Numbered from the stretch's first letter, positions 20,925 through 62,550 are shown. The stretch: 64,000 bases of DNA from Eledone cirrhosa (GCA_964016885.1 OZ024749.1:42532001-42596000), one strand, 5' to 3'. Made by a program: numbers and translations. Notes: generated by a model from the sequence alone, not told the origin.

Positions 20925-21222
20925 TCTATTCTGTCTAAGTGTGGTGGAGGTGACACACAGATGTCGACACAGTCACCCACAGAAACTCACACATATGCTC
21001 ACACATAAGCATTCATACTCATACCACCACAACCTTTGTTCATATATATTTTTTCCAATTCCACCTCGTTCGTCCATTCAATCTATCTTATTTCTCATTC
21101 TTTCTGCTGATGAAGGTCTAGCATCCGAAACGTTAAGACCCTCTTCCTGCTATTTCAAGCGTTAACCTAATATATTTCTTCCATATACTGTACCGAATGT
21201 GTTGTTATTTCTGTTTACCTTA
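20925..21222 (+). mobile_element. Penelope-like 3' terminal fragment, family A
   Basis: Contains an HHR core and ends abruptly in (TA)n. Its last ~45 bp recur at 36592-36645. The 5' boundary is uncertain. Confidence 0.55.
21100..21140 (+). ncRNA. minimal hammerhead ribozyme motif (PLE type)
   Basis: CTGATGA(21107)-AGG tctagcat CC-GAAAC(21127)-GTT, with a palindromic AACGTT in place of stem III. Stem I is weak. Confidence 0.55.
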
Positions 21223-21867
21223 TATATATATATATATATATATATATATATATATATATATATATATATATACATTAATACATGCATGTGTGCGGTCTTG
21301 ATGTAAATATGTTTTCCGAACAAATGTTATTTCTGTATTTGACAAATTGGTGAGAGAATTCACACGACAATGCATGGTTGACACTTATTACACACACACA
21401 CACACATACACACACACACACACATAGACACACACATAGATACACACACACACACACACACACAGACACACACACACACATAGAGACACACACACACAGA
21501 CACACACACACATAAACATACACACACACACATACATAGACATACACACACACATACATAGACATACACATACACGCCTACATGTACACATCCTTATAGA
21601 CATACCCATGCTTGTACACATACATACATGATACATAAATACACTCACACACGTGGATATATATATATATATATATACACACACATACACTAGTGGCACT
21701 GAACCTCTGGCAGAGTGGGATGGGAGCTGCTTTCGTCACAGAAATATTGACCAATCCGTGGCTACAATTGAAGACACAAGGAAGCGAAGAGAATTCCTCA
21801 ATTCCACGGCCATTCCTGACCCTTCTTTAATGATTAGTTATAAAAACTGAATAAATTAAAGGGATTA

Positions 21868-21972
21868 GTTATGTGACGTGATCTTTAATAGTTATATGAC
21901 GTCACTTGTAATTGTTATGTGACGTCACTTTTAATTGTTATGTGACGTAAGCTACTAAAAAGTATGACGTAG
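21868..21972. repeat. ~23-bp degenerate tandem repeat carrying TGACGT(CA)
   Basis: Five TGACGT cores, two of them the full palindrome TGACGTCA. Confidence 0.75.
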
Positions 21973-22061
21973 TTTATTACGAAATCTTTTAACAAAAGCT
22001 GAGCTGTCAGTTCACCTTAAGTATTGTTTGATTTCAAACTTCCTGTCAATTGGTAGTTCTA

Positions 22062-24440
22062 TGTGTAGCTGTTGGTGATGTATCTGTGTGTGTGTGTGTA
22101 GCTGTTGGTGATGTATCTGTGTGTGTGTGTAGCTGTTGGTGATGTATGTGTGTGTGTGTAGCTGGTGGTGATGTATCTGTGTGTGTGTGTGTAGCTGGTG
22201 GTGATGTATCTGTGTGTGTGTAGCTGGTGGTGATGTATCTGTGTGTGTGTGTGTAGCTGGTGGTGATGTATCTGTGTGTGTGTGTGTAGCTGGTGGTGAT
22301 GTATCTGTGTGTGTGTGTGTAGCTGGTGGTGATGTATCTGTGTGTGTGTGTGTGTAGCTGGTGGTGATGTATCTGTGTGTGTGTGTGTGTGTGTGTGTGT
22401 AGCTGGTGGTGATGTATCTGTGTGTGTGTGTAGCTGGTGGTGATGTATCTGTGTGTGTGTGTGTGTGTGTGTGTGTGTGTAGCTGTTGGTGATGTATCTG
22501 TGTGTGTGTGTAGCTGGTGGTGATGTATCTGTGTGTGTGTGTGTGTGTGTGTGTAGCTGGTGGTGATGTATCTGTGTGTGTGTGTGTGTAGCTGGTGGTG
22601 ATGTATCTGTGTGTGTGTGTGTGTGTGTGTAGCTGGTGGTGATGTATCTGTGTGTGTGTGTAGCTGGTGGTGATGTATCTGTGTGTGTGTGTAGCTGGTG
22701 GTGATGTATCTCTGTGTGTGTGTGTGTGTGTGTGTGTGTGTAGCTGTTGGTGATGTATCTGTGTGTGTGTATGTAGCTGGTGGTGATGTATCTGTGTGTG
22801 TGTGTGTGTGTGTGTGTAGCTGGTGGTGATGTATCTGTGTGTGTGTGTGTGTAGCTGGTGGTGATGTATCTGTGTGTGTGTGTGTGTGTGTAGCTGGTGG
22901 TGATGTATCTGTGTGTGTGTGTGTGTAGCTGGTGGTGATGTATCTGTGTGTGTGTGTGTAGCTGGTGGTGATGTATCTGTGTGTGTGTGTGTAGCTGGTG
23001 GTGATGTATCTGTGTGTGTGTGTGTGTAGCTGGTGGTGATGTATCTGTGTGTGTGTGTGTGTAGCTGGTGGTGATGTATCTGTGTGTGTGTGTGTGTAGC
23101 TGGTGGTGATGTATCTGTGTGTGTGTGTGTGTAGCTGGTGGTGATGTATCTGTGTGTGTGTGTGTGTGTGTGTGTGTGTAGCTGGTGGTGATGTATCTGT
23201 GTGTGTGTGTAGCTGGTGGTGATGTATCTGTGTGTGTGTGTGTGTGTGTGTGTGTGTAGCTGTTGGTGATGTATCTGTGTGTGTGTATGTAGCTGGTGGT
23301 GATGTATCTGTGTGTGTGTGTGTGTGTGTGTGTAGCTGGTGGTGATGTATCTGTGTGTGTGTGTGTGTAGCTGGTGGTGATGTATCTGTGTGTGTGTGTG
23401 TGTGTGTAGCTGGTGGTGATGTATCTGTGTGTGTGTGTGTGTAGCTGGTGGTGATGTATCTGTGTGTGTGTGTGTAGCTGGTGGTGATGTATCTGTGTGT
23501 GTGTGTGTGTAGCTGGTGGTGATGTATCTGTGTGTGTGTGTGTGTAGCTGGTGGTGATGTATCTGTGTGTGTGTGTGTGTGTGTGTGTGTAGCTGGTGGT
23601 GATGTATCTGTGTGTGTGTGTAGCTGGTGGTGATGTATCTGTGTGTGTGTGTGTGTGTGTGTGTGTGTGTAGCTGTTGGTGATGTATCTGTGTGTGTGTA
23701 TGTAGCTGGTGGTGATGTATCTGTGTGTGTGTGTGTGTGTGTGTGTGTGTGTGTGTAGCTGTTGGTGATGTATCTGTGTGTGTGTATGTAGCTGGTGGTG
23801 ATGTATCTGTGTGTGTGTAGCTGGTGGTGATGTATCTGTGTGTGTGTGTGTGTGTGTAGCTGGTGGTGATGTATCTGTGTGTGTGTGTGTGTAGCTGGTG
23901 GTGATGTATCTGTGTGTGTGTGTGTGTAGCTGGTGGTGATGTAGCTGTGTGTGTGTGTGTGTAGCTGGTGGTGATGTATCTGTGTGTGTGTGTAGCTGGT
24001 GGTGATGTATCTGTGTGTGTGTGTGTGTGTGTGTAGCTGGTGGTGATGCATCTGTGTGTGTGTGTGTGTGTGTGTGTAGCTGGTGGTGATGCATCTGTGT
24101 GTGTGTGTGTGTGTAGCTGGTGGTGATGCATCTGTGTGTGTGTGTGTGTGTAGCTGGTGGTGATGTATCTGTGTGTGTGTGTAGCTGGTGGTGATGTATC
24201 TGTGTGTGTGTGTGTAGCTGTTGGTGATGTAGCTGTGTGTGTGTGTGTGTAGCTGGTGGTGATGTATCTGTGTGTGTGTGTAGCTGGTGGTGATGTATCT
24301 GTGTGTGTGTGTGTGTGTGTGTAGCTGGTGGTGATGTATCTGTGTGTGTGTGTGTAGCTGGTGGTGATGTATCTGTGTGTGTGTGTAGCTGGTGGTGATG
24401 CATCTGTGTGTGTATGTGTGTGTGTAGCTGTTGGTGGTGA
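22062..24440. repeat. minisatellite AGCTGGTGGTGATGTATCT+(GT)n of variable length
   Basis: Dozens of constant 19-mers separated by variable (GT)n. Confidence 0.97.
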
Positions 24441-24472
24441 TCGTGTTCCTCTGACTGTGTGGCGGTGGTGGT

Positions 24473-60308: not shown

Positions 60309-60619
60309 CATCGTGACTGCCAACTCGTCCTCGAGTACGGCCACTACTTTATATCCATGCAGGAGAACCCCCACCGATGCGCTGAACGAGTGTGACCCTC
60401 CAGTCCAGCCAGCGACTTGAAAACTCTGGTACAAACACTACACTAGTGACAATCACTGACACACAGTGTAGGGCCCATGGCACCACGTGACGACAAGCGC
60501 AGAGAGACCCCCAGATATAAAGCAATGCCTGTGCCGTGAAGCTTTTATAGTGAGCAAAGGCACTGCACAAAGCCAGTCCCACTCTCTTAACCAAGATGAT
60601 ATTTACCAAAAAGAAGAAC
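60309..60619 (-). mobile_element. family R element, 5'-truncated
   Basis: Matches the 6254 and 12876 copies. (ATAC)n flanks. Confidence 0.85.
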
Positions 60620-60806
60620 ATACATACATACATAGATACATACATACATTATATATATATACATATATATATATATGCGAAAGTTTTATTTAAAATTGTT
60701 GGGTTACAACAAGTAAATATTTTATAACTGATATAAAGCACTCGACAAGTTTTGGAGTAGATATACGATATTAAACAAATGGAAACTATATTTATAAAAC
60801 CATATT

Positions 60807-60872
60807 TATTTCATTATACATATTTCGGGGATACCATATTAAAAATATGGCATGCCTTCTTCAGATAAAATA
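60807..60872 (-). ncRNA. type I hammerhead ribozyme (inverted copy)
   Basis: Reverse complement TATTTTAT-CTGAAGA-AGG...CCCC-GAAA-TATGT-ATA-ATGAAATA. Confidence 0.65.
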
Positions 60873-61020
60873 CAATATATAAACAGTTTTATAAATAATT
60901 TTGACGTACCATAAATATTGAGCAACCGTGATGCATCTCACTACCAAAACGGCTTCCTACATAACGGTTGCTCAATATTTATGGTACGTCAAAATTATTT
61001 ATAAAACTGTTTATATATTG

Positions 61021-61086
61021 TATTTTATCTGAAGAAGGCATGCCATATTTTTAATATGGTATCCCTGAAATATGTATAATGAAATA
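61021..61086 (+). ncRNA. type I hammerhead ribozyme
   Basis: Stem I TATTTTAT/ATGAAATA, core CTGAAGA (61029), long stem II AGG..GCCATATT/AATATGGT..CCT, GAAA (61067), minimal stem III and ATA triplet (61076-61078). Confidence 0.7.
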
Positions 61087-62550
61087 AATATGGTTTTATA
61101 AATATAGTTTCCATTTGTTTAATATCGTATATATATATATATATATATATATATATATATATATATATATATATATATATATATATATATATATATATAT
61201 ATATATATATATATATATATATATGCGCACGCGTATGTGTGTGTGTGTGTATCAACCATTCCGTCATGCTGCAGATAAGACCTCACTTTAAGTACTAATG
61301 AGTATGCTCGTGAAACCGACTTCCAGTGTATCCATAACATTTGTTATGAAAACAATCTGTATACGAAAAAAAGAACAACCTAACCTATAAGCACAATATT
61401 CCTAATAAGACGTCCATTATGTTCTGTATAATATAATATCACTAATGTTATATCGTGTTGATAGTTTTTACACCAATATATTGTGTTCAGAAAGTGAGAG
61501 ACTTTTTCAACAGGCACACACAACAGCTCATACACTGGTTTTTGTATATGTGTATCAATGCATATATATATATATATATATATATATATATATATATATA
61601 TGTGTGTGTGTGTGTAAAATCTCCACTGTATTCTTATCATATGTATGTATATATATATATATATATACATATATATATATATATATATATATATAGTAAT
61701 AATAAATGTGAAGACTAAAATCCGAAGAGGGCTCGACATCTATCTATCTATCTATCTATCTATCTATCTATCTATCTATCTATCTGTATGTAAAATCCCC
61801 GGCATGTCTTTGTATTGTCCCCTTTCTTGTTGCGCCCTTGTGGCTAATAAAGAAATCTATCTATCTATCTATCTATCTATCTATCTATCTATCTATCTAT
61901 GCATTGACACACATGTACAAACACCTGTATAATATGAGTTGTTGTATATATATATATATATATATATATACGTACGCAAAGGTGTGTAGATACATTCAAA
62001 TATATGGTCAAATATATTGAGATACATGTCTACATAAACACGCGCTCCCACATACATACATATATATATATATTATATATATATATATATATATATATAT
62101 ATATATATATATATATGTATATATATATATATATATAAAGGCAGCTTTAACAATACAGATAAGGATAAAAATGTAGATGTGTAAACAAGCTAACGTTCCA
62201 TTAGATATTGCCATGTACACACATACACATATATTATACACACACACACACGCACACACGCACACATACACACACACACATATATTATATATATATATAT
62301 ATTATATATATATACACACACACATTATATATACATACACATACATATATATATACACAAACACATACATATATATATATATATAAATACACATACATAC
62401 ATATATATATGCACACATACATATAGACATATACACACACACACACACACGCATATATATATATATATTTATGTAATATATATACACATACACTCACACA
62501 GATATATATGTATATATATACAACATATATACATACACATATTCATATAT

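What the first reader, a model, noticed from the sequence alone, without database searches (positions are those of the whole stretch)
21100..61132. Five dissimilar hammerhead-ribozyme elements beside (TA)n tracts, most as fold-back palindromes
Seen: five families (A 21.1 kb; B 30.4, 33.0, 49.3 and 59.5 kb; C 32.7 kb; D 39.3-40.0 kb; E 60.8-61.1 kb) carry whole or partial HHR motifs, abut (TA)n and lack ORFs. Seven of the eight HHR-bearing loci contain inverted repeats. Established: Penelope-like elements carry minimal HHRs in their terminal repeats, form inverted or partial-tandem structures, and some target microsatellites. Inference: this is a dense, multi-family population of (TA)n-associated PLE termini or retrozyme-like elements. 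The general phenomenon is known; these families may be undescribed.
Basis: partly seen in the sequence, partly recalled or inferred. Interest (0 to 1): 0.75.

Follow-up and report, generated by a model that had tools for sequence, protein, structure and literature searches.

The report
Penelope palindromes record capped RNA start
These repeats are short, mostly mirror-image stubs of Penelope-type jumping genes, plus one small non-coding passenger, with predicted self-cutting hammerhead RNAs; an extra G at the mirror point of many related copies likely records the cap of the element's RNA, which would show that both halves are copied from the sense RNA.

Summary
In detail: five repeat families, 7 of 8 loci inverted, all ends on (TA)n, no coding remnant in the window. 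Only E has a complete hammerhead here; full ones sit in longer genome copies, with a U3-A8 core in B and D. B, C and E are pseudo-LTRs of Penelope-like elements (PLEs) with Hydra-type proteins, A belongs to a Neptune-type PLE, and D is a 320-nt tandem retrozyme with PLE-style ends. All of that is known in kind. The new part is where the mirrors turn: at a fixed A behind TATA/initiator motifs, not at the ribozyme cut. In family C the base before that A is a non-templated G in 80 of 100 fold-back arms, against 0 of 100 long copies; B and E show the same more weakly. The palindromes are therefore likely two short cDNAs run off the capped 5' end of the sense RNA and joined head to head, which argues against the published antisense self-priming model. 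No RNA data were available. The scan's earlier AI notes reached this reading on other DNA of this genome; I found no paper stating it.

The parts
21048..21220 (+). Family A: 5'-truncated end of a Neptune-type PLE, not inverted; (TA)n follows at 21221-21272
21103..21138 (+). A minimal type I hammerhead: box 21107-21113, extra A, stem II, GAAA 21127-21130, predicted cut after 21134; one substitution each in stems I and II against the family
30395..30535 (-). Family B long-end arm; its 5' end is the predicted +1 A (30535, 18 nt before GAAA at 30517); holds only the 3' half of the hammerhead
30536..30551 (+). Family B 16-nt mirror stub running into (TA)5
32692..32750 (-). Family C short-end arm (GAAA at 32734)
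32751..32879 (+). Family C long-end arm (GAAA at 32767); the mirror turns inside the first box, 9 nt short of the predicted +1
32880..32927 (.). (TA)24 shared tail to tail by the C and B33.0 insertions
32928..33065 (-). Family B long-end arm, ending exactly at the predicted +1 A (33065)
33066..33066 (.). Single C between the two +1 positions: either the cap-derived base of the left arm or the templated -1 base of the right arm (cannot be told apart)
33067..33124 (+). Family B short-end arm, starting exactly at the predicted +1 A (GAAA at 33085)
36592..36638 (+).
39275..39496 (-). Family D short-end arm with U3-A8 hammerhead (box 39454-39448, GAAA at 39433; G16.2 is A)
39491..39962 (+). Family D long-end arm, about 1.5 units of the 320-nt repeat, with U3-A8 hammerhead (box 39760-39766, GAAA at 39781; U16.1 is C)
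49258..49307 (-). Family B short-end arm (GAAA at 49301)
49303..49423 (+). Family B long-end arm; junction shortened, GAAA lost
59448..59585 (-). Family B long-end arm (GAAA at 59568), ending 1 nt short of the predicted +1
59599..59663 (+). Family B short-end arm (GAAA at 59616) behind a short duplicated filler
60677..60929 (-). Family E long-end arm with a complete type I hammerhead (box at 60864, GAAA at 60826)
60934..61127 (+). Family E short-end arm with a complete hammerhead (box 61029-61035, GAAA at 61067); starts 6 nt before the initiator-like A at 60940

Best explanation
The eight loci are insertions of four Penelope-like retrotransposon families and one non-coding hammerhead repeat into (TA)n, and the small B, C and E palindromes were likely made by copying the capped front end of the element's sense RNA twice and joining the two copies head to head. 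Shown: family identity, upstream RT-GIY-YIG ORFs, (TA)n preference, one short and one long end per palindrome, a fixed turning point behind TATA/initiator-like motifs, and a non-templated G there. Inferred: RNA polymerase II starts in the pseudo-LTR; the RT-endonuclease nicks both strands of a (TA)n tract; each nick primes cDNA at one of two internal start sites 40-150 nt behind the hammerhead, which in a full element lie just before the ATG; both cDNAs reach the RNA's 5' end, where the cap is read as a G; the two ends are joined by template jump or end joining, often with loss of a few bases at microhomologies. Priming at the 3' pseudo-LTR instead gives the rarer long copies. The template is uncut RNA, since arms run through the ribozyme cut site. 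D likely borrows such an enzyme but uses a multimeric or circular RNA, so it turns at scattered points. A is an older Neptune-type family that rarely inverts.
For: ORFs: B L047, 710 aa; C L182, 48% identity over 691 aa; E L184-L189, 37-45%. In full C and E copies the hammerhead and tail run straight into the ATG about 45-50 nt after the long end. Grid sample of 779.6 kb: B pairs 21 long+short and 4 intermediate+short of 25; C 12 long+short and 3 short+short of 15; E 8 long+short of 9; 24 of 25 B pairs have 47 nt or less between their two GAAA. (TA)4 at defined ends: B 57 of 61, C 26 of 41, E 28 of 29, against 1426 of 27508 random positions and 11 of 162 SINE ends. TATA-to-A spacing 29 or 31 nt in 15 of 15 long B copies and 30 nt in the main C subfamily. 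Base before +1: C fold-backs G 80, C 17, T 3, A 0 of the first 100 arms; long C copies G 0 of 100; C copies joined directly to (TA)n G in 40 of 88 places; E G 16 of 40 arms against 0 of 30 long copies; B G 18 of 100 arms against 0 of 15. The junctions are independent events: 20 of 20 share the subfamily variant on both arms and the filler lies both ways round, 9 against 8. D arm ends scatter from about +2 to -299 and the next base is G in 1 of 12. A PLE enzyme extends both strands from two internal sites on uncut RNA (PMC11167929); an extra G marks the cap in full-length L1 insertions (PMC11702581).
Against: No RNA evidence for the start site, the cap or cleavage. No window locus shows an unambiguous extra G. 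Junctions with both arms at +1 and a 2-10 nt filler are a minority (248 for C, 2252 for B, 20 for one E subgroup), and the patterns select for them. In B, 71 of 100 arms run 1-5 nt beyond the A at -18, so its start is heterogeneous or lies further up. The window's E subfamily has the initiator-like motif but no clear TATA. E turning points are more spread: 17-442 nt between GAAA. The D control has internal breaks, not run-off ends, so it does not separate cap reading from a general habit of adding C at a template end. In 4 of 18 long B copies the core has a C3-A8 mismatch. G counts were made by hand on the first places listed, mostly on the largest contigs.
Confidence: 0.75

Rival explanations
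1. Both arms are copied to a fixed 5' end of the sense RNA, but the G comes from a cap-independent habit of the RT (adding C at run-off), or the end is made by processing, for example splicing at the CAG that overlaps +1 in C.
For: C has a T-rich run and CAG at this place; Penelope has a 5' intron ending at helix I (PMC4209133). Non-templated addition by RTs is general knowledge (recalled).
Against: Only one base is shared: the base before the G varies among T, A, G and C, so no upstream exon is seen. The TATA spacing fits a start site.
Confidence: 0.12
2. The palindromes arise by self-priming on an antisense RNA, as proposed for rotifer Penelope elements.
For: Published reading of head-to-head junction palindromes; bidirectional promoter motifs noted there (PMC3846280). 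Some junctions are perfect palindromes.
Against: It does not predict a turn about 30 nt behind a sense-strand TATA box, a non-templated G on both arms in 37 of 50 junctions, or the same G on non-inverted copies.
Confidence: 0.06
3. The RT stalls or folds back at the hammerhead structure, or the ribozyme cut defines the turning point.
For: B and C turn within or at the edge of the hammerhead.
Against: The turn lies at different places relative to the ribozyme: loop II in B (-18), first base of stem I in C (-25), about -127 in E. Arms pass through the cut site. A stall explains no G.
Confidence: 0.04
4. The palindromes are MITE-like DNA transposons, copies of one master palindrome, collapsed longer inversions or assembly artefacts.
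For: They are short, self-complementary, numerous and flanked by TA.
Against: Arms are unequal by rule, junctions differ from copy to copy, fillers lie both ways round in several subfamilies, and the same sequence is the pseudo-LTR of RT-coding elements.
Confidence: 0.03

Closest known systems
Hydra clade of C-terminal EN+ Penelope-like elements, including Hydra-1_Obim (Craig et al. 2021, PMC8557442; passages, section 11 and supplement look-ups seen)
   Same: B, C, E: single RT-GIY-YIG ORF, DKT (DKS in E), RWR for RWK, CxCx5C linker, CxxC and CxH around E and N, no CCHH, type I hammerhead, (TA)n targets.
   Different: Units are longer than the usual under 3 kb (E 4.1 kb, C 6.0 kb in L182). The hammerheads differ from that of Hydra-1_Obim, and four short motifs of B-E have 0 hits in that supplement. 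Tails are 70-90 nt, not 30-40. Most copies are stubs of about 200-400 bp.
PLE insertions with an inverted 5'-truncated pseudo-LTR and one-sided tail (Arkhipova et al. 2013, PMC3846280; passages and Discussion seen)
   Same: Head-to-head inversion, tail on one arm, TATA plus TCACT initiator in the pseudo-LTR, palindromic junctions.
   Different: That paper explains the junction by self-priming on an antisense template; here the turn sits at the sense start site and carries an extra G.
Poseidon of Anolis, PAc (Frangieh et al. 2024, PMC11167929; parts 1-2 of 4 and a word search seen)
   Same: Two internal RT start sites near the ORF start, both strands extended, uncut RNA as template, AT-rich targets.
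   Different: Different clade; the paper's main text does not treat inverted junctions or the cap.
Minimal PLE hammerheads (Cervera and de la Pena 2014, PMC4209133; parts 1-2 of 4 seen)
   Same: Extra base after A9 (A, E), palindromic helix III, U3-A8 variant, opposite-strand pairs 100-700 bp apart.
   Different: U3-A8 was reported for Schistosoma PLEs; here it is in a Hydra-type family (B) and a retrozyme (D). C has U.U at 10.1/11.1 in 70 of 70 copies matched (the pattern fixed these bases).
Animal non-LTR retrozymes (PMC7229834, part 2 of 6 and passages; bioRxiv 10.64898/2026.07.22.740005, part 1 of 5 and passages)
   Same: D: 320-nt non-coding tandem unit with a type I hammerhead and a strongly self-paired fold.
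   Different: D carries the PLE short/long end rule and head-to-head inversions, a direct sign of PLE mobilisation; the 2026 preprint argues from distribution and phylogeny and never uses the word tail.
Neptune-type PLE
   Same: A relatives carry a C-terminal GIY-YIG with a Cx4CxxC linker and CCHH.
   Different: No whole ORF or tree; A rarely inverts and also ends on (CA)n and (ATAC)n.

Membership tests
EN+ Penelope-like element (B, C, E) | Single ORF with RT and C-terminal GIY-YIG | tested here: met
   L047 710 aa, L182, L188; Pfam support is weak: GIY-YIG E=0.011 for L182, RVT_1 in homologue P0092
EN+ Penelope-like element (B, C, E) | Pseudo-LTR from partial tandems | tested here: met
   pLTR-ORF-pLTR in L182 (C) and L188, L189 (E); for B only 3' pLTRs and short tandems (L045) were seen
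EN+ Penelope-like element (B, C, E) | Inverted 5'-truncated copy with a tail at one end | tested here: met
   41 of 49 pairs long+short; 19 of 20
EN+ Penelope-like element (B, C, E) | Target-site duplication | not testable with these tools
   insertions lie inside (TA)n
Hydra clade | DKT, RWK, CxCx5C linker, CxxC and CxH around E and N, no CCHH | tested here: met
   against section 11 of PMC8557442; RWR stands for RWK, and E has DKS
Hydra clade | (TA)n insertion preference | tested here: met
Hydra clade | Generally shorter than 3 kb (a tendency in the paper, not a definition) | tested here: not met
   E unit 4.1 kb (L188), C unit 6.0 kb (L182), B about 3.5 kb or more (L047) because of long 3' UTRs
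Hydra clade | Placement in a tree with published Hydra RTs | not tested
   compared by eye with Hydra-1_Obim only; so Hydra-type, not formally filed
Neptune clade (A) | C-terminal EN with CX2-5CxxC linker and CCHH | tested here: met
   L167 translation with stops; shared with L164, L166, L173
Neptune clade (A) | RT phylogeny separating it from Nematis | not tested
   no RT core recovered
Type I hammerhead ribozyme | Core boxes with N3-N8 pair, GAAA, UH | tested here: met
   A C-G 34 of 35, C 66 of 70, E 85 of 87, D U-A 26 of 28, B U-A 13 of 18; in the window complete only in E
Type I hammerhead ribozyme | Helices I-III | tested here: met
   stem I 4-6 pairs in all five, with pair changes among C and E subfamilies; B stem II was read by eye because a bulge put the script out of register
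Type I hammerhead ribozyme | Self-cleavage | not testable with these tools
   no assay, no RNA reads
Non-LTR retrozyme (D) | Tandem 150-450 nt non-coding unit with a type I hammerhead | tested here: met
   320-nt unit, arrays up to about 14 units; 35 loci consist of the unit only; no ORF link
Non-LTR retrozyme (D) | Strongly self-paired RNA | tested here: met
   -77.2 kcal/mol, z -5.8, 0 of 100 shuffles
Non-LTR retrozyme (D) | Expressed as circular RNA | not testable with these tools
   no RNA run available
MITE / DNA transposon | Equal terminal inverted repeats and a fixed internal sequence | tested here: not met
   unequal arms and variable junctions

The most novel reading that the evidence does not exclude
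The commonest product of Hydra-type PLE activity in this genome, of the order of 100,000 insertions per family, is a twin run-off palindrome: two cDNAs, each primed at its own internal start site and each ending in a copy of the mRNA cap. The genome thus holds a fossil map of PLE transcription starts and settles that head-to-head PLE inversions come from capped sense RNA. In family B the promoter starts inside the hammerhead, so the 5' ribozyme is switched off by being left half untranscribed.
Probability: 0.7. Interest if true: 0.72.

Novelty: new variant of a known kind. Interest (0 to 1): 0.6.

Why it matters
How Penelope-like elements, the closest relatives of telomerase RT, form their head-to-head inversions is open: the published reading is antisense self-priming, with a sense template not excluded (PMC3846280), and the review of the group calls for a system to study it (PMC8557442). 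A non-templated G on both arms at a TATA-positioned A gives a direct, testable prediction: capped sense RNA copied twice. It also means that many short TA-flanked palindromes, which look like MITEs, are retrotransposon stubs, and that a retrozyme carries the PLE end signature. The families themselves are ordinary new members of known kinds.

Tried and rejected
Rfam scans gave only microsatellite-driven miRNA matches in the rows shown. The repeat finder was swamped by (TA)n. A DNA search of the genome with B returned nothing because common words are skipped. A search for CTGATGA upstream of B gave 8 chance or filler matches; the real box is TTGAnAA. Pfam did not recognise the B ORF. 402 homologues of it are essentially unnamed. 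L191 and L192 held no ORF for A. My first clade guess, Neptune/Nematis with CCHH for B, was wrong. 5'-end histograms were not de-duplicated and are not used. The B tally is confounded by a private variant in the reference and is not used. One search timed out. No RNA holder listed. Contigs of four runs laid on C show a roughly 9-fold depth step across the predicted start, but they may come from the assembled sample and upstream divergence adds to the step, so I give it no weight. A scrambled hammerhead, as noted for other repeats of this genome, was considered for B and C and rejected: the first box lies upstream in long copies. The two E-like motifs at 35967 and 36313 are low-complexity chance. 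Literature searches for a cap or non-templated G at PLE inversions found nothing relevant; subscription papers, including Arkhipova 2006, were not searchable, PMC5850863 is not held, and bioRxiv supplements are closed.
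Full report
Setting. The window is 35% GC and 51% tandem repeat, from a 3.0-Gb animal genome. Its contig sizes and the likeness of its PLE proteins to Hydra-1_Obim (by eye) fit an octopus-like animal; that label is my inference.

Observation. All eight loci exist, 7 of 8 contain an inverted repeat, and by eye all 16 outer ends touch at least (TA)4. No PLE coding remnant lies in the window. A strict descriptor finds complete hammerheads only in the two E arms. 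A and D have the whole motif with one or two substitutions; B and C have only the 3' half.

Family sizes. Exact motif matches in the genome, counting arms: B 23,744, C 31,535, D 687, E 19,688, A 449; reversed-pattern controls 0. A grid of 78 stretches (779.6 kb) holds 74 B, 42 C, 33 E and 14 A arms, or about 63, 35 and 31 insertions per Mb for B, C and E. Scaled up this is of the order of 100,000 each; the grid over-weights small chromosomes, so the figure is rough. The same grid holds 105 hammerheads with a concordant N3-N8 pair (92 C-G, 13 U-A) and 4 mismatched, against 2-5 in all in each of three shuffles.

Hammerheads. Longer copies complete the motif in every family. B and D use UUGAnAA, the U3-A8 variant (13 of 18 and 26 of 28 copies), already reported for Schistosoma PLEs (PMC4209133). 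Four of 18 long B copies have a C3-A8 mismatch. Helix III is palindromic or nearly so, as in ribozymes thought to act as dimers. Cleavage is untested.

Identity. B leads upstream into a 710-aa RT-GIY-YIG ORF (L047). C and E do the same, with pLTR-ORF-pLTR structures in L182, L188 and L189. Their proteins have the Hydra motifs listed in PMC8557442 section 11, but the units are longer than usual and no tree was built. A relatives carry a Neptune-type endonuclease remnant. D is different: 35 loci consist only of a 320-nt unit, alone, inverted or in arrays of up to about 14, which folds well (z -5.8). It fits a non-LTR retrozyme (PMC7229834).

Two ends. Each family except A ends at two fixed places. 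Of 49 inverted B, C and E pairs in the grid, 41 have one long and one short end and none has two long ends. Among 16 distinct inverted D insertions in L089-L118, 12 follow the rule, 1 has two long ends and 3 have one arm ending elsewhere (counted by eye). This is the PLE tail, shown in vitro to be the stretch between two RT start sites (PMC11167929). (TA)4 follows 57 of 61 B, 26 of 41 C and 28 of 29 E defined ends (13, 1 and 4 arms ending elsewhere were left out), against 5.2% of random positions and 11 of 162 SINE ends. A is weaker: 4 of 14, with (CA)n also common.

Where the mirror turns. In 24 of 25 B pairs the two GAAA lie within 47 nt; junction sequences differ from copy to copy. Long copies show why: a TATA-like box lies 29 or 31 nt before an initiator-like A in B (15 of 15) and 30 nt before it in the main C subfamily. 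E has a conserved initiator-like CACT about 127 nt before GAAA, with a TATA box in some subfamilies only. In full C and E elements the hammerhead and tail run directly into the ATG, so both RT start sites also exist near the 5' end of the mRNA, and priming there gives short cDNAs that run off the RNA start.

The extra G. Of 248 C junctions with both arms ending at that A and a 2-10 nt filler, the first 50 listed give G 80, C 17, T 3, A 0 before the A, with G on both arms in 37. The first 100 of 3501 long copies have C 98, T 2, G 0 (Fisher p 7e-37). Twenty of these junctions, fetched, share the subfamily variant on both arms in 20 of 20, have one short and one long end in 19 of 20, and carry the common filler both ways round, 9 against 8, so they are separate events. 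C copies joined straight to (TA)n have G in 40 of 88 distinct places, 21 of them after a T, where neither flank nor template supplies it. E gives G in 16 of all 40 arms against 0 of 30 long copies; B 18 of the first 100 arms of 2252 junctions against 0 of 15, but 71 B arms run a few bases further. D turns at scattered points with G in 1 of 12. An extra G marks the cap in full-length L1 insertions (PMC11702581). These counts were made by hand and the patterns select arms that reach the start; most junctions, including C, B49.3 and B59.5 in this window, have lost a few bases. In the window, both arms of B33.0 and the long arm of B30.4 end exactly at the predicted start, without an unambiguous G.

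Mechanism. Shown: identity, ends, target, turning point, extra G. Inferred: Pol II start in the pLTR, two nicks, two internal primings, run-off with cap reading, head-to-head joining. This contradicts the antisense self-priming reading in PMC3846280, which left a sense template open. In B the start lies in hammerhead loop II, so that transcript would lack half of its 5' ribozyme; in C it is the first base of stem I. The main open alternative is a cap-independent added base at the same RNA end.

Novelty. PLE hammerheads, U3-A8, tails, inversions, TATA plus initiator and (TA)n targeting are all published, and one octopus Hydra family is known. Four searches found no paper on a cap signature at PLE inversions, within a library that lacks most subscription papers. 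I reached this reading before looking (note); the scan's earlier AI notes state the same for other loci of this genome, which is not independent support. Verdict: real; new families of known kinds, with a likely undescribed product class that makes an old mechanistic question testable. Interest 0.6.

Noticed in passing
window 627-825, 5465-5690, 12040-12350, 28736-28860, 29633-29846, 42637-43043, 46160-46750, 49472-49672, 52540-53330: An abundant SINE-like family of about 200 bp, several times in inverted or clustered pairs; used only as a control for TA flanking.
   Followed up: no
window 30639-30788 and 45535-45740: Two further imperfect inverted repeats (70-73% identity) without a recognisable hammerhead.
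   Followed up: no
tails of B, C and E; L188:4785-4930: A small hairpin (ACTC...GAGT type) follows the short end in all three families; in E a near-identical second hairpin follows the long end. Candidate signal for RT initiation.
   Followed up: partly
L206, L243 (about 310-nt units) and L245 (about 482-nt units): Other tandem hammerhead repeats; the 310-nt one is related to D in its 3' part but has a canonical C3-G8 core.
   Followed up: no
L208, L210, L219, L221, L224, L244, L246, L220: At least six more hammerhead families in head-to-head pairs, some with very long stem II, and further U3-A8 motifs.
   Followed up: no
L082:1462-1540: Contig joints that jump back about 77 nt from the short end into the T-rich run before the start site, that is, very short tandem pLTRs of family C.
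   Followed up: no
window 20400-20920 and 58900-59345: LINE-like fragments directly beside A and B59.5, by eye.
   Followed up: no
window 28870-29560, 30900-31430, 53400-54560; N gap 44985-45184: Minisatellite arrays of about 137, 40 and 76 bp and one assembly gap.
   Followed up: no
window 62965-63025: GAAACGTA shortly before CTGAAGA and a small hairpin; hammerhead parts in an odd order, not convincing by eye.
   Followed up: no
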